The notes below the pieces were generated by a model. The model was given only the letters and a program-made list of their open reading frames with translations, had not been told where the DNA came from and did no database searches. Positions 3,422 to 63,083 of a DNA stretch of 64,000 bases are shown here, in pieces (position 1 is the stretch's first letter; the number at the start of each line of letters is the position of its first letter). Source of the DNA: Parcubacteria group bacterium. GTDB lineage: Bacteria > Patescibacteriota > Minisyncoccia > Moranbacterales > UBA9337. The position numbers and the translations under genes are program-made. The stretch lies in NCBI GenBank assembly GCA_041662245.1, contig JBAZSW010000004.1, forward strand, positions 11,454 through 75,453. The letters are read 5' to 3'.

Positions 3422-4252
3422 TTTTTTCAAAAGAAATTCATTACAACCTATACTTCTGACTCCCGTGTATTTTTCGCAGATCATATTATACTTTTTAAAA
3501 TAAACAATAATTTCTTTCACTGAAGCATACTCATAGGGATAACCACCTAACCAATCTTTTATATCAGTAAAAAAATTCATACCTCTTAAGGTTGAATAAT
3601 TTTTAATATACGAAAATGGATTTTTTAGATTAGCTACTAGACCAATAACAAAATAAGTTACATATACACATTCCATTATTTTCTTGATAGCAACATTTGA
3701 GGAATTATAAAATCTTTTTAAATTTACCCATAATTTAGAAGTACCCTCTAGTATACATTTTGTGTTTTTATTATAAATAGCCAAATAAAAAACTCCCTCA
3801 GTTTTCATTAATTGAATAACATTTTCAAAGGCTCGATACATTTCACCAGTGTGATGCAAAACTCCCCAAGAATATACTATATCAAATTGACCTAGGGTTT
3901 TAATAAAATTCTCATCTAGGGCTGAACCTTTTGTAATTTTCCAGTTTTCAGGATTGCCATTTTTTTCTTTTAGATATTTAGCACAAGCAATAGAGAAATC
4001 ATCCACATCTACACTGACGACTTCTTTTGCTCCGAGCAGATAAGCAGCTAGAGAAAATAATCCGCTTCCAGATCCAATATCCACAAAAGTTTTATCTTTA
4101 ATCTTATCTTCACCTCCTAAAAATTCTACCAATGATTTTTTAGCTTCCTGTATTTTTTCATCTGTTAGCGTTTTTAAGAAATTCTGCCAATTTTTACCAA
4201 AACTAAAATGTTTCTTATTTTTATATGTATCTTCGTATATTTCATTTTTCAT
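3416..4252 (-). CDS. Class I SAM-dependent methyltransferase.
   Basis: Motif I VDIGSGSGLFSLAA and post-I acidic residue (VVSVD). Confidence 0.8.
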   Translation of the reverse strand: MKNEIYEDTYKNKKHFSFGKNWQNFLKTLTDEKIQEAKKSLVEFLGGEDKIKDKTFVDIGSGSGLFSLAAYLLGAKEVVSVDVDDFSIACAKYLKEKNGNPENWKITKGSALDENFIKTLGQFDIVYSWGVLHHTGEMYRAFENVIQLMKTEGVFYLAIYNKNTKCILEGTSKLWVNLKRFYNSSNVAIKKIMECVYVTYFVIGLVANLKNPFSYIKNYSTLRGMNFFTDIKDWLGGYPYEYASVKEIIVYFKKYNMICEKYTGVRSIGCNEFLLKKL

Positions 4253-8392: not shown

Positions 8393-9209
8393 AAATTAAA
8401 TAAATACTGTCTTTTGAATCCTCTTCTTCATATAAAGAATGCACCTTAATATCATTAAAAAAATTACTAAGAAAAATCTCTAGACTAATTTTACTGAAAT
8501 AGTTTCGATGATCAAACCAATGCCACCTAGCTCTACCCATTTTTTCATATTTTTTATTCGGGAAACGATTTGGAACACTTATGAAAAATTTTCCATCTTT
8601 TTTAATAAATTTATACAAGTTTTGAAATGCTGGAAGCATGTCCTGAGGAGCCATATGCTCGAAAACCTCATAGGCACAAACGGAATCAAATTTTCCGAAT
8701 CTCAATGGAAAGTTTTCAATAGTAAAATTCTCTAGTTTTATTTTTTTAGCTACACCATAATTAATTATTCCTTGTTTCAATAAATCTTTAATTAATCTTT
8801 TCCCATCTTTAATGGCAGATTTTCTTATATCTATGCCAACTACCTTTGAAACATTTGGAATTTGAGCAATCTTGATACTCACACTCCCATCGCTACATCC
8901 GACTTCCAAAACTTTCTTTCCATAATTAAAACTCTCAATTAGCTCGATTCTTCTCAGGTCGTCCTGCAACATATTTTTTACATTTTTTTCAACTTTATCA
9001 GGATAAAAAACTCTTTTAATTTGATCTTTATACTTTTCAGCACTATTATTTTGATCTTTCTCGTTCCACAAATATGATTCGATTACAACTGGCAACACGC
9101 AAGAAGAATCCGTGGATATAGTTTCTTTTTTTGCGAAAGAATTAAGCATTTTGCCTTCTTTGTCCAATAAAACAATTTTTTTAATATTCTTTATCATATT
9201 TAAATTCAA
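8364..9209 (-). CDS. Class I SAM-dependent methyltransferase.
   Basis: Motif I LEVGCSDGSVS and a Methyltransf_11/23-like layout. It overlaps the neuB start by 29 nt, so operonic. Confidence 0.75.
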   Translation of the reverse strand: MNLNMIKNIKKIVLLDKEGKMLNSFAKKETISTDSSCVLPVVIESYLWNEKDQNNSAEKYKDQIKRVFYPDKVEKNVKNMLQDDLRRIELIESFNYGKKVLEVGCSDGSVSIKIAQIPNVSKVVGIDIRKSAIKDGKRLIKDLLKQGIINYGVAKKIKLENFTIENFPLRFGKFDSVCAYEVFEHMAPQDMLPAFQNLYKFIKKDGKFFISVPNRFPNKKYEKMGRARWHWFDHRNYFSKISLEIFLSNFFNDIKVHSLYEEEDSKDSIYLIFECNGKKYE

Positions 9210-9256: not shown

Positions 9257-10549
9257 CTATTGAAATGCAAAATACTTCTTTCTAATTGCCAAACTTACAA
9301 CATAAGCCATTACCCATACAAAAAAACTTAAATTGAAAGCTACCACCGCACCAAAAAGGCCATATTTAAAAATTAAAGTAAATGACAAAATAATTTTGGT
9401 AATATAATAAACGGTATCTGAGAAAACAATAACTGCATTCATTTTCTTTGCATATACATATCTTACAATCATATTCTGAGGAATATATAAAATAATAAAC
9501 AAGACAAAATATTTTGAATACGAATAATATTCTGTATAGTTAGTGCCAAACAATAGCAAACAAAGTTTTACGATAAAAAAATAATAAAATACTGATAATA
9601 TTAAAATCACTATACCAAAAAATAATACAATTGCTCGTTTATTTTTTAGTAACTGCCATAAGTCTTCATTCGTAATTATAAATTTAGGAAAAAGTATACT
9701 TAAAAGTGGCTTCACACTTTCTCTTAACTTGATTGGAATCAATGAAACAATTGAATACGCAGCTAGTGTCACGGGGGACAAAAAAGTTGCTAGTATAATT
9801 TTATCTACATTATCAGCCACTATTCCAAGTGCACTAATTTTTGTTAAAAAAAATCCATATTTATCAACATCTGGATCTTTATTATTATTATTTATATATT
9901 TTAAACTTTTTTGATAAAATAAAACATTAAATAAAGCAAAAATTCCTAGATATATGGTCGCTATTACTAACAAATTATCCTTATAAAACAAAATAGCCAA
10001 AACAGAAAATAAGGTATTTACAATTGATTGAATGGAAAAATATTTAGCTGAAATGTCAAAAAGTGCCTTTCCTTGCAAAAAACTATCCCATGTATTGAAA
10101 GCATAAAAGAATGGAAAAATTATTGAAGTTACCAGTAAAGATATTCCTAATGGAAAACTTTCCTTTATGTAATAAAATCCAATAATCCAAAGGATGGGAA
10201 TCCCTATAATACTCCATAAAAAACTTTTTTTAACGACACTCTGATAATTCCCATCACTTCCATTGGCAACTGCCGCAGAAATTGATGTATTTAAACCTGA
10301 AATAGAACAAATTGAAACTATGGACCAAATAGAAATTATCAATTGATATTGACCAAATACTTCTTTGCTTAAAAATCTAGCGAAAGAAATATATAGAATC
10401 AAGCCAGCAATAATAGTTATAATTTGTCTTAAGCTAACCCAAAAACCATTCTTAATAAAATATGGCAAGTCGAGGCCTATTTTTTTGCCCAATTTTTTAG
10501 ATAAACTATAGACTTTTTCTTGTATTTTATTTATTATTTTCATATTCAA
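9257..10549 (-). CDS. Polysaccharide biosynthesis protein / Wzx-like flippase (MOP superfamily).
   Basis: 430 aa and ~12 predicted TM helices. Typical Wzx length and placement at the end of a glycan locus. Confidence 0.7.
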   Translation of the reverse strand: MNMKIINKIQEKVYSLSKKLGKKIGLDLPYFIKNGFWVSLRQIITIIAGLILYISFARFLSKEVFGQYQLIISIWSIVSICSISGLNTSISAAVANGSDGNYQSVVKKSFLWSIIGIPILWIIGFYYIKESFPLGISLLVTSIIFPFFYAFNTWDSFLQGKALFDISAKYFSIQSIVNTLFSVLAILFYKDNLLVIATIYLGIFALFNVLFYQKSLKYINNNNKDPDVDKYGFFLTKISALGIVADNVDKIILATFLSPVTLAAYSIVSLIPIKLRESVKPLLSILFPKFIITNEDLWQLLKNKRAIVLFFGIVILILSVFYYFFIVKLCLLLFGTNYTEYYSYSKYFVLFIILYIPQNMIVRYVYAKKMNAVIVFSDTVYYITKIILSFTLIFKYGLFGAVVAFNLSFFVWVMAYVVSLAIRKKYFAFQ

Positions 10550-10553
10550 ATAA

Positions 10554-10667
10554 TTTTTTTGAGGAATTTTCGCATTTCATCACTCATTTCATGCCCAAAA
10601 ACCCTTACGTGTACAGCTTCAGTCAAAGTTATCAATTGTAATTTCAAATTCTCAATCATTTTTTTCT
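10554..10667. repeat. R1 repeat copy A (~100 nt family). Core: gcccaaaaaccc...acagcttcagtcaaagttatcaattgtaatttcaaattctcaatcattttttt.
   Basis: Near-identical to copies at 12441-12550, 13745-13815 and 14207-14295, all in the same orientation. Confidence 0.9.
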
Positions 10668-10687
10668 TTCAATTATTTCATTCTCTA

Positions 10688-10762
10688 AAATGTATCAACA
10701 TACCACCTGCCCGCTAGTTGCTACAGCGTTGCAGGCGGGCGGCCGTGCCAACTCGACACATT
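10688..10762. repeat. R2 palindromic repeat (tgtatcaacataccac|ggccg|tgccaactcgacaca). A 35-nt GC-rich hairpin element H is inserted at 10706-10741.
   Basis: Compare insert-free copies at 14655-14694 and 15299-15337. An identical H-bearing copy sits at 14334-14405. Confidence 0.9.
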
Positions 10763-10842
10763 GTATTCATATTATCCCAAAGCTCGACGACCACATTATT
10801 TTAACACAATCCCAAATACTAGCCCAATTCAAATACCTATCA

Positions 10843-12279
10843 TCAAACAAGTAAAAAATATTTCAGCGGTATTTGCACAATGTTCTCCTTTTCAAAAATA
10901 TTCAATTCGTTTTTTGATATAACCAGTCCATATTTTGCTTTTACTTTAGACGCTGTTTGAATTACTTGAGATATACCTTTATTTCCCATCCCAACCTCTA
11001 TTATAATTTTCTCCCTTGCAAAACCCAAGATAAAATCCGCTCCACCCTGGGCATTATCATACGTGAGTGAAGTATTTATTTTTTTGAAAAGAAATCTACT
11101 TAAGTACATTCCAATCGTATCCTCCAGTAGTTTTCCTGAATAATTTTCTTTTGAAATTACATTACCAATAAAGTTATAATACATTGATCGGAAAGCTGGC
11201 GAAGCAAATAGGTATTTGGAAGGCTTTTTTACCTGATTCAAATGAGAGCCGTGAGGATACACTCTAATTAATGTTTCAGTTTTCTCTAGCGCATTAAAAA
11301 TTTCCATAATTTTAGGACGACTAATGTTGAAAATTTCCGATAATTTTACATAACTTAGTTGTTCTATATCTGCAGTCGCATAAAGAATTGAAGGAATTTT
11401 TGAAATTGTTTCCGAATTAAATTGACCAGTCCTGGCGACATCACTGTTGATTATCCTATCTAACGTTTTATTTATTTGATCATAAACCAAGGCCTCATTG
11501 TTTAACATAACCATAAAAGGAAGCGAGCCATATCTCATATATCTTTCCATCTCCATTCTTTCGATATCAATCCAATATTCATTTATTCTATTTTCGATTC
11601 TGCGCATACCTGCATAGACATCTACCGCAGAGACTGAATTAAAAATTACTCTTCGAACTTCTTTTCGAAGACCTGCTGTTTCACTTTTTCCTGTCTTAAT
11701 TTTCATATATTCCACAAAACTGAGTGGGAACAATTTTTCAAATATAGCCCTTCTTGCGATATCGGGGTTCGTATTAAGATTTAGCGCCGAAGATCCAGTA
11801 GCAAAAATAAAAACATTTTTTGACCTATCATACAGACTTTTTAATGTGATAGCCCATTTTTCATCATATTGGATCTCATCAAGAAATAGATAAAGAGGTT
11901 TATCAAGTCTTTCCATTGCGACTCCAATTAAATCTTCATATGCTTCCAAAACATCATTCAATCCGACGCCAAGAATTTGAACTATATGATCAACTGATAA
12001 ATATAACCGGCGAACATCTCTGTTTTTTTCCACATAATACAACTGTGACATAATTGTAGTCTTTCCGGCGCCCCGAAGGCCGGTCAAAATAAGCCACCTG
12101 GCAGTGGATTTGTGTTCAAAAAAATCCGTAAAATATTTATGTAATTTTATATAAATATTTCTCTTGGGTCGTAGCTTTTTATTTTCATCGAAAATATAAG
12201 CTTCAGCTCGAAAATCCGCCTGCGAAATTTGATCTTGCAAAAACTTTATTATCTTTTCTCTTTTTTCATTATTAGCCAT
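10843..12279 (-). CDS. AAA+ ATPase (AAA_14-like) with a C-terminal DUF4143-like domain.
   Basis: Walker A GLRGAGKTT and Walker B LFLDEIQ. 478 aa architecture typical of archaeal-type ATPase/DUF4143 proteins. Confidence 0.8.
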   Translation of the reverse strand: MANNEKREKIIKFLQDQISQADFRAEAYIFDENKKLRPKRNIYIKLHKYFTDFFEHKSTARWLILTGLRGAGKTTIMSQLYYVEKNRDVRRLYLSVDHIVQILGVGLNDVLEAYEDLIGVAMERLDKPLYLFLDEIQYDEKWAITLKSLYDRSKNVFIFATGSSALNLNTNPDIARRAIFEKLFPLSFVEYMKIKTGKSETAGLRKEVRRVIFNSVSAVDVYAGMRRIENRINEYWIDIERMEMERYMRYGSLPFMVMLNNEALVYDQINKTLDRIINSDVARTGQFNSETISKIPSILYATADIEQLSYVKLSEIFNISRPKIMEIFNALEKTETLIRVYPHGSHLNQVKKPSKYLFASPAFRSMYYNFIGNVISKENYSGKLLEDTIGMYLSRFLFKKINTSLTYDNAQGGADFILGFAREKIIIEVGMGNKGISQVIQTASKVKAKYGLVISKNELNIFEKENIVQIPLKYFLLV

Positions 12280-12440
12280 ACCATTTTAAAATTATTTTAA
12301 TGCTAAATATAGTTTACATTAAAACTATAAATCTTGTCAATATTTATTTACAAGTGTATAGAGACTCCCTATTTACGGCTAATTTAAACAACTTTTTGCT
12401 ATTTTTCTTGTTTGCTTTCTTAAGTTAAAACGGAAGGGGG

Positions 12441-12550
12441 TTTTGAGGAATTTTCGCATTTCATCACTCCGGCCCTGCCCAAAAACCCGCCGATGCACAG
12501 CTTCAGTCAAAGTTATCAATTGTAATTTCAAATTCTCAATCATTTTTTTG
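12441..12550. repeat. R1 repeat copy B.
   Basis: ttttgaggaattttcgcatttcatcact...gcccaaaaaccc...acagcttcagtcaaagttatcaattgtaatttcaaattctcaatcattttttt. It lies immediately 5' of the ATPase gene on the minus strand. Confidence 0.9.
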
Positions 12551-12629
12551 TTTCAATAATTTTTATTTTTTTATCCATTTCTAATATCTAGTTATTATTG
12601 TTTTTGTACATTAGTAATGTATATTATTT

Positions 12630-13676
12630 TCAGTCTTTTATATATGTTATTTTCATCTTATAGTAAGTCGCCCTTCCTTTGCCAAACTTTTCAATTATCC
12701 CTAGGGATATTAATTTCCTAAAATCAAGATTTCTCGTCGGTTTTGCTCGTGTAGTTAGCTTAGCATAATCTCGATCGCTAACATATCCATTATTCTCTAT
12801 GTATTTGATAATTTTCTTGTGATAATTCTTAATTGCCGTATCGGGAGAGATGACCACCTTTTCAAGCTCTTTACTGACGCGTAATAGTTCATCAATAATT
12901 CCGTCTGTAAAATATTCCAGCCACGACGTAAAATCGAATTGATCTTTAATATCATAATAATTTCCCATTACACCAACTTCTTGAAAATATTTACTGACAT
13001 TATTATTGTAATAATTTTCAAAACTAAAAAGATTAAAAGTATTTAGTCCCATTTTGGCTAATAATACCTTAGTGGCTAGACGAGCTGTTCTGCCATTGCC
13101 ATCAATAAAGGGATGGATGATTACAAATTGCTTATGAAATAATCCAGCCAAAATCAACGGGTCAATGATATCTTTATTTATATTTATATAACTCAATAAG
13201 TCATTCATCAGCTCTAATACGTCTAATTGCTCTGGTGGCAGATAAACGACCTGGCGAGCTCTTGGATCATTTACAAAAACTGCTTCTTGCCTTAATCGTC
13301 CGCATCGATGCTTTTCAATTAAATCTTGTGTTATGTTTTTTTGAATCTCCAATATCAAATCTAAATCAAAAGAATGCTCTTTATCTTTTGACAAAGAGCT
13401 CAGAGTAATTAACGCCTTATTGTAATTTAAAACTTCCCTCTCGCTATCACGAACATGTTTGGGGGCATTTTTTATAATTCTTTTAACGTCAGTCAAGGGT
13501 AATGGGTTTCCTTCAATGCTCGTAGAAGAAAAGGCGGAAATTTCCCGCGCCCGCCTCTCAAATTCTGCCAAAACAACATCCGAAAAATTCCGATTATTCA
13601 AATCAGTAATAATTTCAGTTATTTTTTTAATGTTAGCTAATAGTTGGCTAGAAATAGTATATTTTGGCTCAAACAT
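12630..13676 (-). CDS. Fic family protein (class II, with an N-terminal autoinhibitory helix).
   Basis: Fic active-site motif HPFIDGNGRTARL. Inhibitory (S/T)xxxE(G/N) motif STSIEGN in the N-terminal Fic_N region. C-terminal wHTH-like tail. Confidence 0.9.
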   Translation of the reverse strand: MFEPKYTISSQLLANIKKITEIITDLNNRNFSDVVLAEFERRAREISAFSSTSIEGNPLPLTDVKRIIKNAPKHVRDSEREVLNYNKALITLSSLSKDKEHSFDLDLILEIQKNITQDLIEKHRCGRLRQEAVFVNDPRARQVVYLPPEQLDVLELMNDLLSYININKDIIDPLILAGLFHKQFVIIHPFIDGNGRTARLATKVLLAKMGLNTFNLFSFENYYNNNVSKYFQEVGVMGNYYDIKDQFDFTSWLEYFTDGIIDELLRVSKELEKVVISPDTAIKNYHKKIIKYIENNGYVSDRDYAKLTTRAKPTRNLDFRKLISLGIIEKFGKGRATYYKMKITYIKD

Positions 13677-13744
13677 AGATAATGATAGTTACTTATATAG
13701 ACTAATTATAGACGATTATTAGACGATTGTCAACCTCTTACTCA

Positions 13745-13815
13745 GCCCAAAAACCCTCAGGTGCACAGCTTCAGTCAAAACAATTAACCTTAATTTCAAT
13801 ATTCTCAATCATTTC
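13745..13815. repeat. R1 repeat copy C, in the divergent region between Fic and the 80-aa gene.
   Basis: gcccaaaaaccctcaggtgcacagcttcagtcaaaacaattaaccttaatttcaatattctcaatcattt. Confidence 0.85.
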
Positions 13816-13911
13816 TATATTATGCATTATTTTACAATATTTTACAATTTAGCTATAATCTAGCCATAAGACTCGTTTGACACTCCCGAAGTAAGGTTTT
13901 ATAATTAAACT

Positions 13912-14154
13912 ATGAAAAATAACAACAAAACAAAAAAAGAAATGACTATTGATGATTTAGCGCTAATGGTAGCTAAAGGCTTTAATGATGCAAATGAAAG
14001 GATGAATAAACGTTTTGATCAAGTAGATAAGAGATTTGAGAAAATTGAATCACGCCTTAAAAATATTGAAGCTGATCTTAATAAAAAGTTAGACAAAATT
14101 GAACATAACACTCTTATTTATCGAGTTGAAAAATTAGAGAAGAAATTTGCTTAA
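13912..14154 (+). CDS. Small coiled-coil hypothetical protein (80 aa).
   Basis: Heptad-rich K/E sequence (MNKRFDQVDKRFEKIESRLKNIEADLNKKLDKIE). A hairpin terminator follows at 14184-14212. Confidence 0.5.
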   Translation: MKNNNKTKKEMTIDDLALMVAKGFNDANERMNKRFDQVDKRFEKIESRLKNIEADLNKKLDKIEHNTLIYRVEKLEKKFA

Positions 14155-14183
14155 TATAAAATTTTAGAATTATTCAAAATATA

Positions 14184-14212
14184 AACAGGTCCACAACCTG
14201 TTTTTTTATCAC
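14184..14212 (+). terminator. Rho-independent terminator (aacaggtccacaacctgtttttttat).
   Basis: 7-bp stem aacaggt/acctgtt with a 4-nt loop and a T7 tract, directly after the 80-aa ORF. Confidence 0.7.
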
Positions 14213-14295
14213 TCATCTCATGCCCAAAAACCCTCAGGTGCACAGCTTCAGTCAAGGTTATCAATTGTAATTTCAAATTCTCAATCATTTTTTTC
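14207..14295. repeat. R1 repeat copy D.
   Basis: atcactcatctcatgcccaaaaaccctcaggtgcacagcttcagtcaaggttatcaattgtaatttcaaattctcaatcattttttt. Confidence 0.9.
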
Positions 14296-14333
14296 TTTTT
14301 TTAAAATATTTCACCTTTCTTACCTATTCCCCA

Positions 14334-14405
14334 AAATGTATCAACATACCACCTGCCCGCTAGTTGCTACAGCGTTGCAGGCGGGCGGCCGTGCCAACTC
14401 GACAC
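14334..14405. repeat. R2 palindromic repeat copy with the H hairpin insert (14353-14388).
   Basis: Identical to 10688-10762 over ~72 nt (aaaatgtatcaacataccacctgcccgctagttgctacagcgttgcaggcgggcggccgtgccaactcgacac). Confidence 0.9.
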
Positions 14406-14654
14406 CTACCTATATCGCCCCAATTATAAATCCCGAACCCATCCATTTCTCTATTATGCATTATTTTTCCGCTCCCGCCCATACTTGAAAATTTTATTAT
14501 TTAGGTGCACAATCTAAATGCAATGACATCTCGAAAGAGAAGCTCTGAGATTCCAACTAGACGGGGTCGTTTTTTTATTCCAAATCTCGGACAGAAGTTC
14601 ACACAATTCACATTGTTAGGTGGAGATTTTTTTATTTTATTTTTCTTTTTTTTA

Positions 14655-14694
14655 AAATGTATCAACATACCACGGCCGTGTTAAGTTGACACAT
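14655..14694. promoter_or_regulatory. R2 palindrome without insert (tgtatcaacataccac ggccg tgttaagttgacaca), 25 nt downstream of the PaaX-like gene.
   Basis: Imperfect inverted arms (13/16) around a GGCCG centre. Candidate dimeric-regulator binding site. Confidence 0.5.
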
Positions 14695-14717
14695 TATATT
14701 GACATTGCAAACAAATG

Positions 14718-15290
14718 CTAGATTTCTAAATTAAAAAGTTTTGCAAAATGTCTTTTAATCTTATCTTCATTATCAATTTTTAAGGCTGTAATAACTCTGA
14801 CATATTTTTGAGCAGAATACAAATCAATCACTTCCAGCATGGCTTCTTCCAAAGGATAAGGAGAAACAAATACGCTATGTTGAAGTTTAAAAAATTTAAG
14901 CTCTCGCAAATGATCTCGTAAAATATCGCGAAAAGCTCGGTCTTTCTCTGGAATGTCAAAAAGAACAATTCTCCATCTATTATCCCACTTTCTTGGCTTC
15001 TTAAAATTTATTGATTTTCCAATCAGACTAAGCATTCTTGCCTGCTTTATCCCCTCTGCAGTAAGCAGTAATTTAAAGGAACCATTGGGAGATATTTTTT
15101 CTTCAATTAATTTTTCTTTCGAAAGTTTACTGATGGAGCGATTAAAATTACGCTGGTCTATCCTTTCCCAATCTTTTTTTAATGTTCGAAGTGTCCTAAA
15201 ATACTGTCTAGAAGAATTCGATACTCCTAAAGCCACACCGCCCAAAAGCACTAGCATAATCTTTTTTTGTGTTGTTCCAAATTTATGCAT
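14718..15290 (-). CDS. PaaX_C-like domain protein (putative transcriptional regulator; Cas2/VapD-like fold family).
   Basis: C-terminal WDNRWRIVLFDIPEKDRAFRDILRDHLRELKFFKLQHSVFVSPYP matches the PaaX C-terminal domain consensus pattern. Recognised from memory and not searched. Confidence 0.5.
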   Translation of the reverse strand: MHKFGTTQKKIMLVLLGGVALGVSNSSRQYFRTLRTLKKDWERIDQRNFNRSISKLSKEKLIEEKISPNGSFKLLLTAEGIKQARMLSLIGKSINFKKPRKWDNRWRIVLFDIPEKDRAFRDILRDHLRELKFFKLQHSVFVSPYPLEEAMLEVIDLYSAQKYVRVITALKIDNEDKIKRHFAKLFNLEI

Positions 15291-15298
15291 ACATTATT

Positions 15299-15337
15299 TG
15301 TATCAACATACCACGGCCGTGTTAAGTCGACACATTT
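15299..15337. promoter_or_regulatory. R2 palindrome without insert, immediately upstream (-9 to -47) of the PaaX-like gene start.
   Basis: tgtatcaacataccacggccgtgttaagtcgacacat. Its position relative to the start codon suggests an operator/promoter. Confidence 0.5.
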
Positions 15338-15625
15338 ATTATATTACTTTTTTGGCATACACTGTAACAATAGGTATATCTAAATATACATTAAAACATG
15401 ATTTTTACTGATAGTCTTTACCCCATTAAATAAAAACTTATCGGACGAAAAAAATACAACTATAATTTCAAAGACTCCTTGGAAAGATTGCGTTTTATTT
15501 ATTATATTTTACCACTTTTCAAATATTAGTTCAAAGCAAGATTCCTGAAGCTAGTCCTGATTGCAAAAAGAAATTATTGTCGTGCCATGGACTTTTCAGA
15601 CATGCTTCATTATAATTAAGTTACT

Positions 15626-17104
15626 ATGAAAAAAAGCATTCATCATATATTAATTCAACCCTATTTAGGTATAAGTCTATTGCTTTTAGTATTTCTGCTA
15701 AAAGGGTTTTTATTTGTAACTATCTTACCTATTTTTCAAGGTCCCGATGAACCTATTCATTATGCCACTATCCAATATTTTGCAGAACCTAAGGAAAAAA
15801 ATTGGGATATCCAAAAAATCGACAAGGAAGATTTCTTCCCTGATGGAGATAATACGAATACTTATCATTATTCTCAAGAAATCAAAAAAACAGCTGAAAT
15901 TTCCCAATTTGATGAAATAAAATTTCATGGTACGAATACTTCACTTTTCTTATCTGGATCTGATGGAGCAATTGAGCAAACCCTCCCTCAAGCTTCTTGG
16001 AAAAAATATATTGATTCTTATCCTCCCTCCATAGTTGGCGGCCCATCTTTATATTATTTAGTTACTTCCCAAATTGAAAAGTTTTTTTCATCCTCTGACA
16101 TTTTGGTTCGTTTTTTTTCCATTCGCATATTCTCTGTTTTTTTAGGAATATTAACTGTCCTTTTGGCTTATTTAACTACGTTAAAAGCTGGCTTCACCCA
16201 AAAACAGGCCTTGGTAATCTCTACCATTATCGCCTTTCAACCCATGTTTACCCAGACAGCAGCTATAATAAATTATGACATCCCTTTAATATTTGCCTTT
16301 TCACTTTTTACTTATGCGACAGTTGCTCTTCTGAGACATGGCTTTCAATGGAAATATTTTTGTTTTCTTTTTTTGGGAGCATTGGTAGGAATATTAGTCA
16401 AAGGAACGGGTCTTATTTTGCCCGTTTTGATTTTTCCGATTTTAATTTATCTTATTTATCAAAAAACAGATTTTGGTTTAGGCAAAAAAAAGTTTTTCTT
16501 TTATCTATCCGCTCTTTTTGTCATAGCTATTGCGTTTTTTATTATTTTCGGACCAAAAGGAACTACCGAAATTTTTACCGATTTTTCGGCAACTTCGAAT
16601 TTTTCCTCCCCGCTTGAATCATTACAGAAATACATTGTCATCACTGCAGAACGCTGGGACTTTTTTGAGCTTACTTATTGGGGGAGCTTTGGCTGGCTAG
16701 ACGCACAGGTTTCTGATTATGTATTAATTTTTATTTGGCTAACAGAAATAGTTGCCCTAGCAGGAATAGTTTATGCATTTTTCTTTAAAAAAATCCCATC
16801 TTCTTTTTTACCCGAAAAAAAATATATAATTTTTATGATTTTAATGCTAGTTGCCCTTCAAGGCTTAATTCGTTTTTATGATTGGAAAATTTTTTACAGT
16901 GATGGTTCTATTATAATCGGAACTCCAGGGAGATACTTTTTGCCTAATATTATTTCACATTTTTTGGTTTTATTTTTTGGCCTAGGATCCTTTTTCTCAA
17001 AAAAGAAACATTTTGATATATTGCTAATAACTTCCTTAATTTTAATGATTGGATTTTTCTTCTATTCTCTTTTTAATATTATTATCCCTCGCTATTATTT
17101 ATGA
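15626..17104 (+). CDS. Polytopic membrane protein, GT-C-fold glycosyltransferase-like (DUF2142/ArnT/PMT-like).
   Basis: ~12 TM helices. The first periplasmic loop carries the GPDEPIHY (DE) motif typical of GT-C enzymes. Confidence 0.45.
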   Translation: MKKSIHHILIQPYLGISLLLLVFLLKGFLFVTILPIFQGPDEPIHYATIQYFAEPKEKNWDIQKIDKEDFFPDGDNTNTYHYSQEIKKTAEISQFDEIKFHGTNTSLFLSGSDGAIEQTLPQASWKKYIDSYPPSIVGGPSLYYLVTSQIEKFFSSSDILVRFFSIRIFSVFLGILTVLLAYLTTLKAGFTQKQALVISTIIAFQPMFTQTAAIINYDIPLIFAFSLFTYATVALLRHGFQWKYFCFLFLGALVGILVKGTGLILPVLIFPILIYLIYQKTDFGLGKKKFFFYLSALFVIAIAFFIIFGPKGTTEIFTDFSATSNFSSPLESLQKYIVITAERWDFFELTYWGSFGWLDAQVSDYVLIFIWLTEIVALAGIVYAFFFKKIPSSFLPEKKYIIFMILMLVALQGLIRFYDWKIFYSDGSIIIGTPGRYFLPNIISHFLVLFFGLGSFFSKKKHFDILLITSLILMIGFFFYSLFNIIIPRYYL

Positions 17105-44039: not shown

Positions 44040-44113
44040 GCTCTCGTAGTTCAACGGATACCTGTCCGCAGTGCTACAGCGTTGCAGGCGGGGAACGCGA
44101 GTTTGGCAAACTC
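44040..44113 (+). pseudogene. tRNA 5'-half fragment (positions 1-43 of the downstream tRNA-Arg) interrupted by a 33-nt GC-rich H hairpin element at 44061-44093.
   Basis: gctctcgtagttcaacggata [cctgtccgcagtgctacagcgttgcaggcggg] gaacgcgagtttggcaaactcg. No T-arm follows. Confidence 0.7.
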
Positions 44114-44158: not shown

Positions 44159-44230
44159 GCTCTCGTAGTTCAACGGATAGAACGCGAGTTTGCGGAACTC
44201 GTAATTGAAGTTCGATTCTTCACGAGAGCA
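44159..44230 (+). tRNA. tRNA-Arg (anticodon GCG, an unusual choice), no encoded CCA.
   Basis: Hand-folded: acceptor gctctcg/cgagagc, D gttc/gaac, anticodon stem cgagt/actcg with loop ttGCGga, T tgaag/cttca with ttcgatt loop. Confidence 0.75.
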
Positions 44231-44263
44231 CATCTATTTTAAAAAACGCCCGTTTGGCGTTTT

Positions 44264-54282: not shown

Positions 54283-54355
54283 TGGACCGAACAGGACTCG
54301 AACCCGCCACCTCCTCAGTGCAAATGAGGCGCTCTACCAGATGAGCTATCGGCCC
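54283..54355 (-). tRNA. tRNA-Ala (anticodon TGC), CCA encoded.
   Basis: Reverse complement: gggccgatagctcatctggtagagcgcctcatttgcactgaggaggtggcgggttcgagtcctgttcggtcca. G3:U70 pair present. Confidence 0.85.
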
Positions 54356-54560
54356 ATTTATTTGAAATGGTAAACTATTAAATTGTAGATGCCTTCTCTG
54401 TGCAAGAGATTGAGAATGAGTGAGCAATCTCCGCTCAGACAATCTACTTGGCCCATTTATTTGAAATGGTAAACTATTAAATTGTAGATGCCTTCTCTGT
54501 GCAAGAGATTGAGAATGAGTGAGCAATCTCCGCTCAGACAATCTACTCGGCCCATTTATT
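54351..54560. repeat. Tandem direct repeat, 2 x ~105 bp, starting at the tRNA-Ala 5' end. Duplicates the tRNA-Ala upstream/promoter region.
   Basis: ggcccatttatttgaaatggtaaactattaaattgtagatgccttctctgtgcaagagattgagaatgagtgagcaatctccgctcagacaatctact repeated with 1-2 mismatches. Confidence 0.9.
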
Positions 54561-54644
54561 TATATTTCAAAACTAAAATAAATTATATAGTATATCTAAA
54601 AATTTGTCTAGCAAACAATCGGGCAATTTGACAATGCAGAGAGG

Positions 54645-54787: not shown

Positions 54788-55864
54788 ATGATTTATTTAA
54801 ACGCTCTTAATAGAATAAATGGCATTGGTCCTCAAAAAATAAAAATTTTAATGAGTCACTTTGGCAGTGGCGAAGAAATTTGGAAAAGTAATTTAAGCGA
54901 ATTAATAAAAAGTGGCATAAATGAAAAATTAGCCCAAATTATACTTAGCGAAAGAATCAAAATTAATCCCGAAGAGGAATGGGAAAAATTAGAAAAAGAA
55001 AATATTCGAGTTATTTCTTTTTTCGACGATACTTACCCTACTCTTTTAAAAGAAATTCCTTCCGCTCCTCAGATCCTTTATGTCAAAGGTGATTATGATT
55101 TTAATTCTGCTCCCATGATTGCTATCGTCGGTTCGAGAAAGTTTTCTAATTATGGTCAGCGTGTTGCTGCTTCAATTGCCTATGATTTAGCTAAAGCAGG
55201 AATAACAGTGGTTTCAGGGATGGCTCTTGGCATTGATGCTTTTGCTCACAGAGGCGCGCTAGATGGTGGCGGAAAAACTTTAGCAGTACTTGGCAGTAGC
55301 TTGGAAGATAAAAATGTTGGACCACGCGCTAACTTTAATCTTTCTCGCCACATTATCAATAGTGGCGCATTAATAAGCGACTATTCACTGGGAACGCAAG
55401 CTATCCCAGGCACATTTCCTGCTCGCAATCGTCTGATGGCAGGATTAACTTTAGGCACCCTAGTCATCGAAGCCGCTCCTGCCAGCGGGACATTAATTAC
55501 AGCCAGCATGGCTCTAGATTTCAACCGTGAAGTTTTTGCTGTTCCGGGAGATATTTTTTCTCCTAGCTCCCAAGGAACCAATCAGTTAATCAAGTCTGGC
55601 GCTAAAATTGTTAGCAGTGTGACAGATATTTTGGAAGAATTAAATATTGAAAAATTTCAACAAGAAAAAATTATAAAAAAGTTTATTCCTGCCTCAATTG
55701 AAGAAGAAAAAATTATAAAAATAATTTCTCACGAACCCGTTCACATTGACAGAATTATAAAACTCTCTAAAATAAAAACCAGTGGCGTTTCTTCTATTTT
55801 GATTATTTTAGAAATGAAAGGAATAATAAAAGATATCGGGGGACAAAATTATATAAGGCTATAA
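54788..55864 (+). CDS. dprA: DNA-processing protein DprA (Smf).
   Basis: Rossmann-like core IAIVGSRKFSNYGQRVAASIAYDLAKAGITVVSGMALGIDAFAHRGAL and a C-terminal DML1-like domain. Confidence 0.88.
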   Translation: MIYLNALNRINGIGPQKIKILMSHFGSGEEIWKSNLSELIKSGINEKLAQIILSERIKINPEEEWEKLEKENIRVISFFDDTYPTLLKEIPSAPQILYVKGDYDFNSAPMIAIVGSRKFSNYGQRVAASIAYDLAKAGITVVSGMALGIDAFAHRGALDGGGKTLAVLGSSLEDKNVGPRANFNLSRHIINSGALISDYSLGTQAIPGTFPARNRLMAGLTLGTLVIEAAPASGTLITASMALDFNREVFAVPGDIFSPSSQGTNQLIKSGAKIVSSVTDILEELNIEKFQQEKIIKKFIPASIEEEKIIKIISHEPVHIDRIIKLSKIKTSGVSSILIILEMKGIIKDIGGQNYIRL

Positions 55865-62991: not shown

Positions 62992-63051
62992 AATTAATTA
63001 TAGTATAGCGTTTTTTAATAACTTTGAAAAGAGGGTGTTCTCTACGAAATA

Positions 63052-63083
63052 CCTGCCCGCAGTGCTACAGCGTTGCAGGCGGG
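63052..63083. repeat. H hairpin element copy (cctgcccgcagtgctacagcgttgcaggcggg), upstream of parA and next to tRNA-Leu.
   Basis: Same 32-nt GC-rich element as in 10706-10741, 14353-14388 and 44061-44093. Confidence 0.85.

What the first reader, a model, noticed from the sequence alone, without database searches (positions are those of the whole stretch)
10550..15420. Repeat-bracketed accessory island: AAA+/DUF4143 ATPase, class-II Fic protein, coiled-coil protein and a PaaX_C-like regulator
A 5-kb segment sits between the glycan locus and housekeeping genes. It encodes a Fic AMPylator-type protein (HPFIDGNGRTARL with an intact inhibitory STSIEGN helix). It also encodes a DUF4143 ATPase (DUF4143 is PD-(D/E)xK-like), a tiny coiled-coil protein and a PaaX_C-like (Cas2/VapD-fold) regulator. 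Every gene is separated from the next by the same ~100-nt R1 repeat and/or the R2 palindrome. This unit-per-gene bracketing resembles a cassette array (integron-like or defence-island-like), but I see no integrase. It is an unusual organisation and may be a Fic-centred toxin/immunity or regulatory module that has not been described.
Basis: partly seen in the sequence, partly recalled or inferred. Interest (0 to 1): 0.72.

Follow-up and report, generated by a model that had tools for sequence, protein, structure and literature searches.

The report
Repeated wzx stubs and regulator palindromes
The repeats between these four genes are leftover front ends of a sugar-exporter (wzx) gene, plus the signature palindrome of a conserved small regulator; so the segment is a recombination-scarred junction in a cell-surface sugar locus of an ultra-small (Moranbacteria-type) bacterium, not a new Fic-centred gene module.

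Summary
Four genes at 10.55-15.42 kb are separated by two repeat families found nowhere else in the window. The repeats are not cassette sites.

- **R1 (4 copies)** is the first ~100 nt (leader plus codons 1-33) of a Wzx flippase gene. Its minus-strand frame matches the N-termini of ~435-aa Polysacc_synt proteins. It also aligns at DNA level with an intact wzx in a similarly organised locus.
- **R2** is the palindrome (centre ACGG|CCGT) that brackets the PaaX_M/Cas2-like gene in about 85% of more than 80 related loci. Its centre lies 26 nt before the ATG and ~19 nt after the stop. 'Long R2' is this palindrome split by a separate 34-nt GC hairpin.
- **Co-occurrence:** the four genes never co-occur in relatives.
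- **Fic** recurs in glycan loci. In two other lineages it is likewise preceded by stubs of the downstream exporter gene (wzx, wzt).

Best reading: this is an accretion zone at the PMT|wzx junction of a glycan operon. It was probably built by serial insertions and one operon swap, each leaving a wzx head. I found no integrase in the window. The regulator-palindrome association appears undescribed.

The parts
9257..10549 (-). Intact wzx flippase. It heads a nonulosonic-acid-type glycan operon (wzx, MT, NeuB, 2-epimerase, cytidylyltransferase, Glyphos_transf-like, MT) that runs down to 3416. The likely true start is the ATG at 10543.
   Evidence: Pfam Polysacc_synt 3.2e-12; operon genes. It is only 25% identical to the R1-type Wzx P0244 and 46% identical to the L011 Wzx.
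10546..10678 (-). R1 copy 1: stub of an older wzx (leader plus codons 1-34, ORF 10659->10546). Its stop codon lies 2 nt before the new wzx ATG.
   Evidence: A profile of the R1 ORFs hits N-termini of ~430-444-aa Polysacc_synt proteins. DNA alignment to the P0244 wzx 5' end.
10688..10759 (.). Long R2 copy 1: a PaaX-type palindrome, split at its centre by a 34-nt GC-rich hairpin (10707-10740).
   Evidence: With the hairpin removed it equals short R2, apart from 4 changes in the right arm.
10843..12279 (-). AAA_14 + DUF4143-like ATPase (COG1373 type), with its own promoter at 12311-12340 (-).
   Evidence: Pfam AAA_14 3.9e-23, DUF4143 5.9e-5; PADLOC PDC-S01 1.4e-29. Promoter TTGACA-18-TAAACT. No viral relatives.
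12441..12562 (-). R1 copy 2: wzx stub (codons 1-34), truncated at the same base as copy 1.
12630..13735 (-). Fic unit: class II Fic gene (12630-13676) plus its ~36-nt conserved promoter/operator (13700-13735). The promoter is a perfect TTGACA-17-TATAAT overlapped by three 11-nt TAGACnAnTnT repeats.
   Evidence: Pfam Fic 8e-20; PADLOC SoFic 5.3e-47. The promoter is 92-97% identical upstream of all Fic orthologs, and conservation starts at the -35 box and ends at the stop codon.
13745..13815 (-). R1 copy 3: the shortest and most diverged wzx stub (frame broken after 13 codons). It abuts the Fic -35 box.
   Evidence: 83-86% identity to the other copies.
13877..14203 (+). Small coiled-coil gene (13912-14154). 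It has a perfect promoter (13877-13905) ending 6 nt before the ATG, so the mRNA is probably leaderless. A bidirectional terminator follows (14183-14203).
   Evidence: No family above threshold. No homolog in any fetched locus.
14204..14307 (-). R1 copy 4: wzx stub truncated after codon 27 by the terminator.
14334..14405 (.). Long R2 copy 2 (hairpin insert at 14353-14386). A 24-nt box at 14444-14467 follows; the same box also follows R1 copy 3 (13810-13833).
   Evidence: (24-nt box, z = 5.2).
14406..14654 (.). ~250-nt non-coding spacer with weak promoter-like (14485-14513, +) and terminator-like (14549-14568, +) signals. Function unknown.
   Evidence: No Rfam match.
14655..14697 (.). Short R2, downstream copy. 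Palindrome centre lies 42 nt after the PaaX-like stop codon.
   Evidence: PWM 31.6 bits.
14718..15290 (-). PaaX_M-like protein: an N-terminal winged helix followed by a Cas2-fold domain. It is conserved across Moranbacteria-type genomes.
   Evidence: PF20803 1.3e-22; TIGR01573 cas2 23.9 bits against a cutoff of 24.5. 437 homologs. AF2 model plus Foldseek: E. coli PaaX 8a39, then Cas2 structures.
15296..15338 (.). Short R2, upstream copy. Its centre lies exactly 26 nt before the ATG. Its gene-proximal arm (the left arm on the + strand, i.e. the right arm in gene orientation) supplies a TGnTACAAA extended -10, 6 nt before the ATG, so the mRNA is probably leaderless.
   Evidence: PWM 28.3 bits.
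15626..17104 (+). PMT-type glycosyltransferase: the right-hand conserved neighbour of the junction.
   Evidence: Pfam PMT 5.5e-13. 36-38% identical to the PMT genes next to wzx or Fic in L096 and L015.

Best explanation
The segment is the promoter-proximal junction (PMT <- | -> wzx) of a cell-surface glycan operon in a Moranbacteria-type (Patescibacteria) genome. Unrelated, independently transcribed single-gene units have accumulated there.

**R1 (shown).** R1 is the head of an ancestral wzx flippase gene: about 20 nt of leader plus codons 1-33, present as four truncated copies.

**Origin of the R1 copies (inferred).**
- Each stub is a scar of an event at the head of the operon. These events are the insertion of the AAA gene, the Fic unit and the small coiled-coil gene.
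- A final event swapped the central part of the operon. It brought in a different-lineage wzx, whose ATG now sits 2 nt after the last stub.
- The simplest mechanism is RecA-type recombination. Circular or linear DNA carrying a wzx-head homology segment integrates there and so duplicates that segment.
- As direct repeats, the stubs could also loop the intervening genes out again.

**R2 (shown).** R2 is unrelated to R1. It is the cognate palindrome of the PaaX_M/Cas2-fold winged-helix protein (consensus TATCATnATnnnACGG|CCGTnnnATnATGATA). Throughout the lineage it brackets that gene.

**Role of R2 (inferred).**
- R2 most likely acts as the protein's double-stranded operator. It overlaps the extended -10 of a leaderless promoter.
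- The two long R2 copies are extra copies that lay upstream of the ancestral wzx head. They were later split by a separate 34-nt GC hairpin element and duplicated together with R1.

**No joint function.** The four genes do not work together. Fic is a self-contained unit (promoter to stop codon) that habitually resides in glycan loci. The AAA ATPase and the coiled-coil gene are local additions of unknown role.
For: **R1 is a wzx head**
- A profile of the three R1 minus-strand ORFs gave 21 hits at E<=1e-3 among 1.84e9 proteins (2 are the R1 ORFs themselves). The 10 I scanned with Pfam were all Polysacc_synt (8 full-length, 430-444 aa; 2 truncated), matched over roughly their first 30-45 residues (best 7e-8).
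- R1 aligns at DNA level with the P0244 wzx 5' end, at ~90% over the last 41 nt. The homology stops at codon 33, where the real gene continues into TM1.
- The P0244 locus is organised like this one: PMT <- | -> wzx, MT, GT1, MT.

**The central part of the operon was swapped**
- The distal genes MT_3416 and GT1_2321 are 67% and 64% identical to the P0244 locus.
- The R1 peptide is 67% identical to the P0244 N-terminus.
- The intact Wzx is only 25% identical.

**More than one event**
- The stubs are truncated at three different points: codon 34 in c1 and c2, codon 27 in c4, and about codon 22 in c3.
- They differ from each other by 6-17%.
- The cargo between them is unrelated.

**The pattern recurs elsewhere**
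- L011 has 3 stubs of its own, different wzx. They lie around Fic and three other genes.
- L013 has a wzt stub abutting the Fic -35 box.

**R2 belongs to the PaaX-like gene**
- A CGRYCG centre lies upstream in 70/83 loci (mode exactly 26 nt before the ATG, 36 loci). It lies downstream in 72/86 loci (mode 18-21 nt after the stop). The background rate is 0.76 per kb.
- Arms are 75% identical within a locus and 47% between loci (0 of 5000 permutations reach this).
- G.U-type and A.C-type mismatches are symmetric, which fits a double-stranded site.
- The protein resembles PaaX and Cas2 by Pfam and by fold.

**There is no four-gene module**.

**Other support**
- Each gene has its own promoter.
- No integrase was found among the scanned ORFs of the window. 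DprA, the transformation recombination mediator, is present.
Against: - The mechanism that duplicates the wzx head is inferred, not shown. I have no circular intermediates, no empty site and no strain variants.
- No close relative of this genome could be fetched. The R1 pattern gave 0 hits in both large DNA collections. The PMT-based synteny search found only a 22%-identical Aminicenantes gene. So I could not test whether R1 occurs elsewhere in the source genome.
- Copies c1 and c2 share the same truncation point. At least one stub was therefore copied after truncation, rather than made by an independent insertion.
- L010 and L015 show no exporter stub next to Fic.
- Assigning long R2 to the ancestral wzx promoter rests only on its position. 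No palindrome was found upstream of the intact P0244-type wzx.
- The extra palindromes in relatives sit like REP elements. Many lie 19-35 nt after a stop codon, 4 lie between convergent genes, and none shows a fixed distance to a gene start. A pure operator model does not explain this placement.
- The order of the array depends on a single MAG assembly across repeats.
Confidence: 0.68

Rival explanations
1. This is a true site-specific cassette system. The head of the glycan-exporter gene (wzx or wzt) is an attachment site. Single-gene cassettes such as the Fic unit are inserted there by a recombinase encoded elsewhere. Each insertion carries or recreates a copy of the exporter head, as tandem islands do at tRNA genes.
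For: - The same layout is found in three lineages with different exporter genes: the window, L011 and L013.
- The Fic unit has sharp, conserved ends, running from the -35 box to the stop codon. It is 75-80% identical across classes, and its promoter is 92-97% identical. This suggests it moves horizontally as a unit.
- In L013 and in the window, the stub ends directly at the Fic -35 box.
Against: - No integrase, transposase or recombinase was found among the ORFs of at least 110 aa scanned across the 64 kb, or in the fetched Fic loci.
- The stubs have different lengths and end points (22-34 codons; 37-87 nt in L011; an internal 74 nt in L013). There is no common core or crossover sequence.
- R1 has no inverted-repeat structure.
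- L010 and L015 have Fic without stubs.
Confidence: 0.12
2. The four genes form one Fic-centred toxin/immunity, defence or regulatory module, and the repeats are its cassette or regulatory sites.
For: - The Fic protein matches the PADLOC SoFic model (5e-47) and the ATPase matches PDC-S01 (1e-29).
- The genes are adjacent and are bracketed by shared repeats.
Against: - None of 75 non-redundant PaaX-like loci and none of 5 distinct Fic loci shows the gene set.
- Each gene has its own promoter, and one gene is on the opposite strand.
- The repeats are wzx stubs and the PaaX-like gene's own palindrome.
- Fic scores 64.5 bits against a cutoff of 550 for the SoFic equivalog.
Confidence: 0.03
3. The R2 palindromes are not (only) operators. 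They are a REP-like dispersed repeat family. The Cas2-fold/winged-helix protein is their dedicated partner, analogous to a RAYT, and binds, cuts or moves them. The palindrome-gene-palindrome unit is itself mobile.
For: - A short gene is flanked on both sides by its cognate palindrome. Two diverged paralogs on one contig have different palindromes (L063/L093).
- There are 85 extra sites in 760 kb. All 38 classifiable distal sites are intergenic. Many lie 19-35 nt after a stop codon and 4 lie between convergent genes. Some form tandem arrays.
- The gene occupies non-orthologous positions. In L007 it lies inside the TrmD-FtsW-MraY-PGK...RpoB-RpoC block. That block is intact in the window without the gene.
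- The Cas2 motif FDIPE...QxSVF is invariant, and the cas2 model scores 23.9 bits against a cutoff of 24.5.
- These are the defining traits of RAYT/REPIN systems as described in PMC3337134.
Against: - The protein has no HUH/Y1 motifs. It is homologous to the repressor PaaX over both domains.
- The upstream copy lies at a fixed 26 nt from the ATG and overlaps an extended -10, as an autoregulatory operator would.
- Mismatch symmetry argues against a single-strand hairpin substrate.
- Copy number is low, roughly one distal site per 30 kb.
Confidence: 0.2
4. The tandem array is an assembly artefact. Different strains in the sample carry different single genes at the same wzx-head site, and the assembler threaded these alternatives in series through the shared repeat.
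For: - The Logan assembly of the same sample breaks at the repeats.
- The exact Fic protein was not on record for that assembly.
- Glycan loci are typically strain-variable (general knowledge).
Against: - The copies differ by 6-17% and have different truncation points and flanks. They are distinct sequences, not one collapsed repeat.
- The Logan contigs confirm copy-specific junctions: R1c2 with the AAA gene's upstream region, and R2L copy 2 with the spacer and the PaaX-like gene.
- An independent MAG (L011) shows the same kind of array.
Confidence: 0.07
5. The R1 copies are kept because they are functional. They could be 5' leader modules or small ORFs (37-54 aa, MIENLKLQLITLTEAVH...) that regulate the downstream genes.
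For: - Three copies keep the ATG and an open frame.
- Some differences between copies are synonymous in that frame (sequence inspection).
- The last 41 nt are unusually conserved, at ~90% against a wzx whose protein is ~65% identical elsewhere.
Against: - ORF lengths and C-termini differ in every copy, and copy 3 is frameshifted.
- There is no significant secondary structure and no covariation.
- There is no Rfam hit.
- Copy 4 is followed by a terminator and a convergent gene, not by a gene it could lead.
Confidence: 0.07

Closest known systems
Cassette replacement in O-antigen/capsule loci, and 'minimal mobile elements' exchanged by transformation and homologous recombination between conserved flanking genes (from my own knowledge; not tested against a paper here)
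   Same: - The locus has a variable centre and conserved flanks: distal genes are 64-67% identical but wzx only 25%.
- A gene remnant sits at the junction.
- There are no mobility genes.
- DprA is present in the window.
   Different: - Here the same gene head is left behind four times, with one unrelated gene between each pair of stubs.
- The pattern recurs in other lineages next to Fic.
Tandem accretion of integrative islands at a tRNA or gene end, with the duplicated target segment between islands
   Same: - Direct repeats of a gene end separate successive insertions.
- The intact gene copy sits at one end of the array.
   Different: - The units are single genes of 0.3-1.7 kb without an integrase.
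- The repeat end points vary.
- The target is the 5' end of a protein-coding exporter gene.
Integron cassette array (attC sites; CALIN when the integrase is absent)
   Same: There is one gene per unit, a repeat of ~100 nt between genes, and no integrase nearby.
   Different: - R1 is not an imperfect palindrome and does not fold.
- R1 is coding sequence of wzx.
- The genes carry their own promoters, and one is inverted.
PaaX, the phenylacetate-pathway repressor of E. coli (PDB 8a39), and its palindromic operator
   Same: - The winged-helix plus Cas2-like middle domain match: PF20803 1.3e-22, TIGR02277 over residues 45-188, best Foldseek hit 8a39.
- A palindrome overlaps the gene's own promoter.
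   Different: - There is no PaaX_C domain and there are no paa genes nearby.
- The Cas2-type Asp (FDIPE) is retained.
- A second palindrome lies after the stop codon, and there are dispersed and tandem extra copies.
REP/REPIN-RAYT systems (PMC3337134)
   Same: - A short gene is flanked by its cognate palindromes, with specific pairing between gene variant and repeat variant.
- The gene is usually single-copy (two paralogs were seen on two contigs).
- Extra copies are intergenic.
   Different: - The protein has a Cas2/PaaX fold and is not an HUH-Y1 transposase.
- There are tens of copies rather than hundreds.
- Mismatches show no strand bias.

Membership tests
Integron / attC cassette array | IntI-type tyrosine recombinase with attI next to the array | tested here: not met
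   No integrase or recombinase domain was found in any scanned ORF of at least 110 aa across the 64-kb window. RpoB/RpoC were identified only by synteny and length, and two ORFs overlapping larger genes were not scanned.
Integron / attC cassette array | attC: an imperfect inverted repeat that folds as a single-strand hairpin | tested here: not met
   R1 folded as ssDNA on both strands gives z-scores of +0.26 to +0.87 against shuffles.
Wzx flippase gene (for R1) | Homology to the N-terminus of Polysacc_synt proteins, at protein and DNA level | tested here: met
   All 10 profile hits that I scanned with Pfam are Polysacc_synt proteins, matched within about their first 45 residues, best E = 7e-8 in 1.84e9 sequences. 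67% amino-acid identity to P0244. DNA alignment.
Wzx flippase gene (for R1) | Full-length gene with 10-14 transmembrane segments | tested here: not met
   All four copies stop at codon 22-34, before TM1. They are pseudogene stubs.
MITE / IS-derived repeat (for R1) | Terminal inverted repeats and target-site duplication | tested here: not met
   There is no terminal inverted repeat structure. Flanks are unrelated and no short duplication is present.
PaaX-family repressor | N-terminal winged helix plus PaaX_M (Cas2-like) domain | tested here: met
   PF20803 1.3e-22. TIGR02277 aligns residues 45-188 (32 bits, below the cutoff of 264). The AF2 model shows H-H-H-b-b followed by b-a-b-b-a-b. Foldseek best hit is 8a39.
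PaaX-family repressor | PaaX_C domain and association with paa (phenylacetate) genes | tested here: not met
   The protein has 190 aa and no PaaX_C hit. No paa genes appear in any of the annotated contexts.
PaaX-family repressor | Binds a palindromic operator at its target promoters | not testable with these tools
   Position supports this: the centre lies 26 nt before the ATG and overlaps an extended -10. Mismatches are symmetric. Binding itself needs EMSA or DAP-seq.
REP/REPIN-RAYT | HUH and Y1 motifs of an IS200/IS605-like transposase | tested here: not met
   Pfam gives only PaaX_M and weak Cas2. There is no PHROG or transposase hit.
REP/REPIN-RAYT | Gene flanked by cognate palindromes that are also dispersed in intergenic DNA | tested here: met
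   Palindrome present upstream in 70/83 loci and downstream in 72/86. 85 extra sites; of the 38 distal sites that could be classified, none lies inside an ORF. Within-locus arm identity is 0.75 against 0.47 between loci.
CRISPR array (for the palindrome arrays in relatives) | Near-identical repeats separated by unique spacers | tested here: not met
   In the one array read in detail (L057), the repeats differ by several nt and the 'spacers' resemble each other, so this is a tandem duplication of a ~65-nt unit.
Class II Fic AMP-transferase | Fic motif HxFx(D/E)GNGRxxR, plus an N-terminal inhibitory (S/T)xxxE(G/N) in the same chain | tested here: met
   HPFIDGNGRTARL and STSIEG are present in the translation. 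Pfam Fic 8e-20. PDB relatives are FICD and SoFic.
SoFic defence protein | Score at equivalog level, and a defence-island context | tested here: not met
   NCBIfam SoFic scores 64.5 bits against a cutoff of 550. The PADLOC SoFic HMM does match (5e-47). The contexts are glycan loci, not defence islands. Defence activity is not testable here.
AAA_14/DUF4143 ATPase (COG1373; PADLOC candidate PDC-S01) | AAA_14 domain followed by DUF4143 | tested here: inconclusive
   AAA_14 is clear (82 bits). DUF4143 scores 23.3 bits, below its cutoff of 28.1, but spans the whole model (12-157 of 160). PDC-S01 1.4e-29 over the full length.

The most novel reading that the evidence does not exclude
The PaaX_M/Cas2-fold winged-helix protein and its cognate ACGG|CCGT palindromes form a REP-RAYT-like partnership built on a Cas2-fold protein instead of an HUH transposase. 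The protein would bind, and possibly cut or move, a dispersed palindrome family, and the palindrome-gene-palindrome unit would relocate between genomes. In parallel, the heads of glycan-exporter genes (wzx, wzt) would serve as reusable docking sites where integrase-free single-gene units, such as the Fic unit, are inserted and removed.
Probability: 0.18. Interest if true: 0.8.

Novelty: new variant of a known kind. Interest (0 to 1): 0.5.

Why it matters
- **For the finding itself.** What looked like a new Fic-centred cassette system turns out to be scar tissue at the head of a surface-glycan operon. This is a useful negative result. It warns that 'repeat-bracketed islands' in metagenome-assembled genomes may be gene-fragment duplications.
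- **Exporter-gene stubs.** Serial stubs of the exporter gene head lie between unrelated genes, in three lineages and with different exporters. This suggests that Patescibacteria remodel the promoter-proximal end of glycan operons by a repeatable route that needs no integrase. Surface glycans are probable phage and host-contact determinants in these episymbionts (my inference; not tested here).
- **The regulator and its palindrome.** A lineage-wide, Cas2-fold/winged-helix protein is bracketed by its own co-varying palindrome. I found no description of this in the searchable literature. It gives an easily testable protein-DNA pair in a phylum with almost no characterised regulators. It also bears on how Cas2-like domains are used outside CRISPR.

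Tried and rejected
- **R1 as an attC-like or structured element:** no fold signal on either strand and no Rfam family.
- **R1 as a genome- or lineage-wide repeat:** the core pattern gave 0 hits in the species-representative genomes and in JGI metagenomes. So the source genome is not in those collections, and genome-wide distribution could not be tested.
- **Finding further copies through repeat-encoded small ORFs in the word-indexed protein database:** nothing scored.
- **Empty-site test through the PMT neighbour:** only a 22%-identical Aminicenantes hit.
- **A wzx 5' remnant to the left of R1 copy 2,** which would have meant a larger duplication unit: not supported (z = 0.3).
- **Compensatory changes in the variable 5-nt box of R1:** none by inspection.
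- **CRISPR-like reading of the palindrome arrays next to the Cas2-like gene:** rejected for L057, the one array read in detail, because the spacers are related, so it is a tandem duplication.
- **RNA-hairpin function of R2:** G.U versus A.C mismatches are symmetric.
- **Phage carriage of the Fic or AAA genes:** no relatives in viral contigs.
- **Compositional island:** GC is flat at 0.29-0.35 across both borders.
- **Literature:** no paper links PaaX with Cas2 or Patescibacteria, and nothing useful turned up on DUF4143 and defence.

Full report

Yes. ORF listing and HMM scans confirm four genes:
- An AAA_14 ATPase with a weak, full-length DUF4143 match, at 10843-12279 (-).
- A Fic protein at 12630-13676 (-). 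It has the canonical HPFIDGNGRTARL motif and an N-terminal STSIEG inhibitory motif.
- An 80-aa coiled-coil ORF at 13912-14154 (+), with no family.
- A 190-aa protein at 14718-15290 (-). Its domain is PaaX_M (PF20803, the Cas2-like middle domain), not PaaX_C.

Two repeat families separate the genes.
- R1 has four copies on the + strand: 10557-10678, 12441-12562, 13745-13815 and 14204-14307.
- R2 has two long copies (10680-10759, 14326-14405) and two short copies (14655-14697, 15296-15338).
- Both cores occur only here in the 64 kb, and no shuffle of the window reached four matches for either core.
- A whole-window self-comparison shows they are by far its strongest repeats.

Other checks:
- GC content does not shift at the borders.
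- The left neighbour is a wzx flippase that heads a nonulosonic-acid-type operon: MT, NeuB, 2-epimerase, cytidylyltransferase and further genes. The right neighbour is a PMT-type glycosyltransferase. So the segment lies inside a glycan locus.
- No integrase or transposase was found among the ORFs of at least 110 aa that I scanned across the window. RpoB/RpoC were identified only by synteny and length, and two ORFs that overlap larger genes were not scanned.

**2. Source and relatives**

- The exact PaaX-like and Fic proteins belong to an NCBI MAG, 'Parcubacteria group bacterium', locus tag WC682_, on a 163.8-kb contig. The nearest relatives are Candidatus Moranbacteria.
- A Logan assembly of the same sample breaks exactly inside the repeats. 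It confirms some copy-specific junctions.
- The R1 core is absent from the species-representative genomes and from JGI metagenomes. No close syntenic relative could be fetched.

**3. What R1 is**

- R1 has no hairpin potential on either strand and no Rfam match.
- Its minus strand carries an ATG-initiated frame, MIENLKLQLITLTEAVHxRVFGHEMSDEMRKFLK. This frame is intact in three copies and broken in the fourth.
- A profile of these ORFs, searched against 1.84e9 representative proteins, gave 21 hits at E<=1e-3. Two are the R1 ORFs themselves. The 10 that I scanned with Pfam were all Polysacc_synt/Wzx (8 full-length of 430-444 aa, 2 truncated), matched over roughly their first 30-45 residues.
- One such gene, P0244, lies in a locus organised like this one: 226 aa <- PMT <- | -> epimerase -> wzx -> MT -> GT1 -> MT.
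- R1 aligns with the 5' end of that gene at DNA level, at ~90% over the last 41 nt. The homology ends at codon 33, where the real gene continues into its first membrane segment.

R1 is therefore a truncated wzx head: about 20 nt of leader plus codons 1-33.

**4. How the stubs relate to the locus**

- The window's distal operon genes are 67% (MT_3416) and 64% (GT1_2321) identical to the P0244 locus. The R1 peptide is 67% identical to the P0244 N-terminus. The window's intact Wzx is only 25% identical.
- So the central part of the operon was replaced, leaving the old wzx head. Stub c1 ends 2 nt before the ATG of the new wzx.
- The four stubs are truncated at three different positions: c1 and c2 at codon 34, c4 at codon 27, and c3 at about codon 22. 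They are 83-94% identical in the shared core and have unrelated flanks.
- One exception is a 24-nt box shared to the right of c3 and to the right of the long R2 of c4 (z = 5.2). This makes c4 a c3-type unit with a ~150-nt segment containing R2 between the stub and the box, or c3 a deletion of that segment.
- Read on the minus strand, the layout is:
  PaaX-like | R2S | spacer | box-R2L-stub c4 | terminator / coiled-coil gene (opposite strand) | box-stub c3 | Fic promoter-Fic | stub c2 | AAA promoter-AAA | R2L-stub c1 | new wzx.
- The cargo between stubs is unrelated, so simple tandem duplication does not explain the array. Serial insertion at the wzx head, with duplication of that head, does.

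**5. The pattern recurs**

- *L011, a Pacebacteria MAG.* Its own wzx is of a different type, 46% identical to the window's intact Wzx. The 5' end of that wzx is repeated three times:
  - 27 nt after the Fic stop codon (87 nt, 90% identical);
  - between two small genes (59 nt, 86%);
  - partly upstream of Fic (37 nt, 95%).
  The resulting order is stub | Fic | stub | two genes | stub | one gene | intact wzx.
- *L013.* A 74-nt piece of the wzt ABC-exporter gene (the Walker A region) abuts the Fic -35 box. The intact wzt follows Fic.
- *L010 and L015.* No such stub is present.
- So in 3 of 5 distinct Fic loci, a stub of the downstream exporter gene precedes Fic.

**6. The Fic unit**

- Fic orthologs are 70-80% identical across Moranbacteria, Pacebacteria and other Patescibacteria.
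- In all four long contexts, Fic lies in a glycan locus, next to PMT_2, GT1/GT2, Wzx or Wzm/Wzt genes. It is never next to AAA_14/DUF4143 or PaaX_M.
- Conservation with relatives begins exactly at the -35 box and ends at the stop codon. Within that span, ~36 nt of promoter are 92-97% identical: TTGACAATCGTCTA..AATCGTCTATAAT, containing three 11-nt direct repeats.
- Fic is therefore a compact, self-contained unit that habitually resides in glycan loci. It may move between them.

**7. What R2 is**

- The PaaX_M-like protein has 437 homologs; the listed best 120 are 64-88% identical. Its neighbourhood differs in every relative.
- In every relative the gene is bracketed by a palindrome.
- Over the loci fetched from metagenomes:
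  - A CGRYCG centre lies 15-80 nt upstream of the ATG in 70/83 loci, with the mode at exactly 26 nt (36 loci).
  - It lies within 90 nt after the stop codon in 72/86 loci, with the mode at 18-21 nt.
  - The background rate is 0.76 per kb.
  - The consensus is TATCATnATnnnACGG|CCGTnnnATnATGATA.
- The arm nearest the gene supplies a TGnTAnAAT extended -10, 6-7 nt before the ATG. This implies a leaderless mRNA.
- Arms are 75% identical within a locus and 47% between loci (0 of 5000 permutations). Self-complementarity is 0.65 against 0.27 for controls.
- G.U-type and A.C-type mismatches are symmetric. This favours a double-stranded binding site over an RNA hairpin.
- The AF2 model (pLDDT 65) shows a winged helix followed by a ferredoxin-like b-a-b-b-a-b domain. 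Foldseek finds E. coli PaaX (8a39) first, then Cas2 proteins.
- The window's short R2 copies score 31.6 and 28.3 bits on the family matrix.
- Long R2 is the same palindrome with a 34-nt GC hairpin inserted at its centre. That hairpin is a separate small element, also present at 44060-44092 and 63051-63083.

**8. Operator or REP-like element?**

The family matrix finds 85 further sites in 760 kb of flanks, against none at >=10 bits in 400 kb of shuffled sequence.
- Many form tandem arrays upstream of the gene. In the one array I read in detail (L057), these are duplications of a whole ~65-nt unit and are not CRISPR-like.
- All 38 classifiable distal sites are intergenic. They show no fixed distance to a gene start, 4 lie between convergent genes, and many lie 19-35 nt after a stop codon.
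- The gene also occupies non-orthologous positions. In L007 it sits inside a TrmD-FtsW-MraY-PGK...RpoB-RpoC-S6-SSB block. That block is intact in the window without it.
- These traits resemble REP/REPIN-RAYT systems (PMC3337134), but the protein has no HUH motifs.
- I rate 'autoregulated DNA-binding protein with a small set of cognate sites' as the more likely reading and 'REP-like partnership' as a live alternative.

**9. No four-gene module**

- None of 75 non-redundant PaaX-like loci carries an ortholog of the window's Fic, AAA, coiled-coil gene or wzx.
- None of the Fic loci carries the other three genes.
- Each gene has its own promoter. Fic and the coiled-coil gene have perfect consensus promoters, and the AAA gene has TTGACA-18-TAAACT.
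- The PADLOC matches (SoFic, PDC-S01) show family resemblance only. Fic is far below the SoFic equivalog cutoff.

**10. Verdict**

- It is wrong on the nature of the repeats and on a Fic-centred module.
- Identity of R1 and R2: high confidence.
- Mechanism of stub duplication: inferred. I favour homologous, Campbell-type insertion at the wzx head, followed by one operon swap. DprA in the window shows that the transformation machinery is present.

Main caveats:
- The array order rests on a single MAG assembly across repeats.
- The source genome could not be searched for further copies.
- Only five distinct Fic loci were examined.

Noticed in passing
window 10707-10740, 14353-14386, 44060-44092, 63051-63083: A 32-34-nt GC-rich hairpin, CCTGCCCGC(T)AGT(T)GCTACAGCGTTGCAGGCGGG, occurs four times in a ~30% GC genome. 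Two copies are inserted at the exact centre of R2 palindromes. One lies inside a partial tRNA-Arg duplicate, and one lies ~110 nt upstream of tRNA-Leu. It looks like a tiny insertion element of its own.
   Followed up: partly
window 44040-44110: A partial duplicate of tRNA-Arg(GCG) lies ~120 nt upstream of the real gene (44159-44231). Its first 21 nt are identical to the real gene. Then comes the GC hairpin, then an anticodon-arm-like segment with a changed loop (GGC). There is no T arm, and ARAGORN and Rfam do not call it.
   Followed up: no
window 54351-54561: A ~99-nt unit is tandemly duplicated (99% identical) directly upstream of tRNA-Ala (-). Each unit starts with the first few bases of the tRNA. 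This is another case in this genome of a gene's 5' edge being duplicated together with its upstream region.
   Followed up: no
window 13700-13735; L010-L015 upstream of Fic: The Fic promoter, TTGACAATCGTCTA(AT/TC)AATCGTCTATAAT(T/A)AG(T/A)CTATA, is almost invariant across classes. It contains three 11-nt direct repeats (TAGACnAnTnT on the + strand). It is probably an operator, perhaps for the Fic protein's own C-terminal domain.
   Followed up: partly
L011 2600-6300 (Pacebacteria GCA_031291955.1); L013 6874-6947 / 8841-8914: In other lineages, stubs of the resident exporter gene (wzx in L011, wzt in L013) flank Fic and its neighbouring small genes. L011 also has a 33-nt repeat (2695-2727 / 4086-4118) next to two of the stubs.
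   Followed up: yes
L057 7238-7520; L064 2814-2960; L085 4491-4780; L090 7595-7850; L061; L075; L043: Tandem arrays of 3-5 PaaX-type palindromes with a 55-67-nt period lie upstream (sometimes downstream) of the PaaX_M-like gene. In L057, the array read in detail, whole units including the spacers are duplicated.
   Followed up: partly
L063 and L093 (same contig Ga0209417_1000159); L085 4790-5345 and 8001-8546: Some genomes carry two diverged PaaX_M-like paralogs. On contig Ga0209417_1000159 each paralog is bracketed by a different palindrome variant.
   Followed up: partly
window 41.8-28.6 kb versus L007: The block TrmD-FtsW-MraY-PGK-RpoB-RpoC-S6-SSB is syntenic with a Moranbacteria relative. 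There, the PaaX_M-like gene and four other genes sit between PGK and RpoB. In the window PGK is followed directly by RpoB.
   Followed up: partly
window 13877-14203: The 80-aa coiled-coil gene has a perfect TTGACA-17-TATAAT promoter ending 6 nt before its ATG (so probably leaderless) and a strong bidirectional terminator. This suggests high expression. It has no homolog in any fetched locus and only weak PHROG/NCBIfam hits.
   Followed up: partly
window 14406-14654: A 250-nt non-coding spacer lies between long R2 and short R2. It has a promoter-like site (14485-14513, +) and a terminator-like hairpin (14549-14568, +), so it may encode a small transcript.
   Followed up: no
window 26140/53351, 27542/54667, 28215/55866, 53406/54700, 54058/54252: Several other short (40-60 nt) intergenic repeat pairs at 81-93% identity lie elsewhere in the window. 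The genome carries multiple small repeat families.
   Followed up: no
window 54788-55864: DprA, the recombination mediator of natural transformation, is encoded in the window. This is relevant to the idea that the glycan locus is remodelled by uptake and homologous recombination.
   Followed up: no
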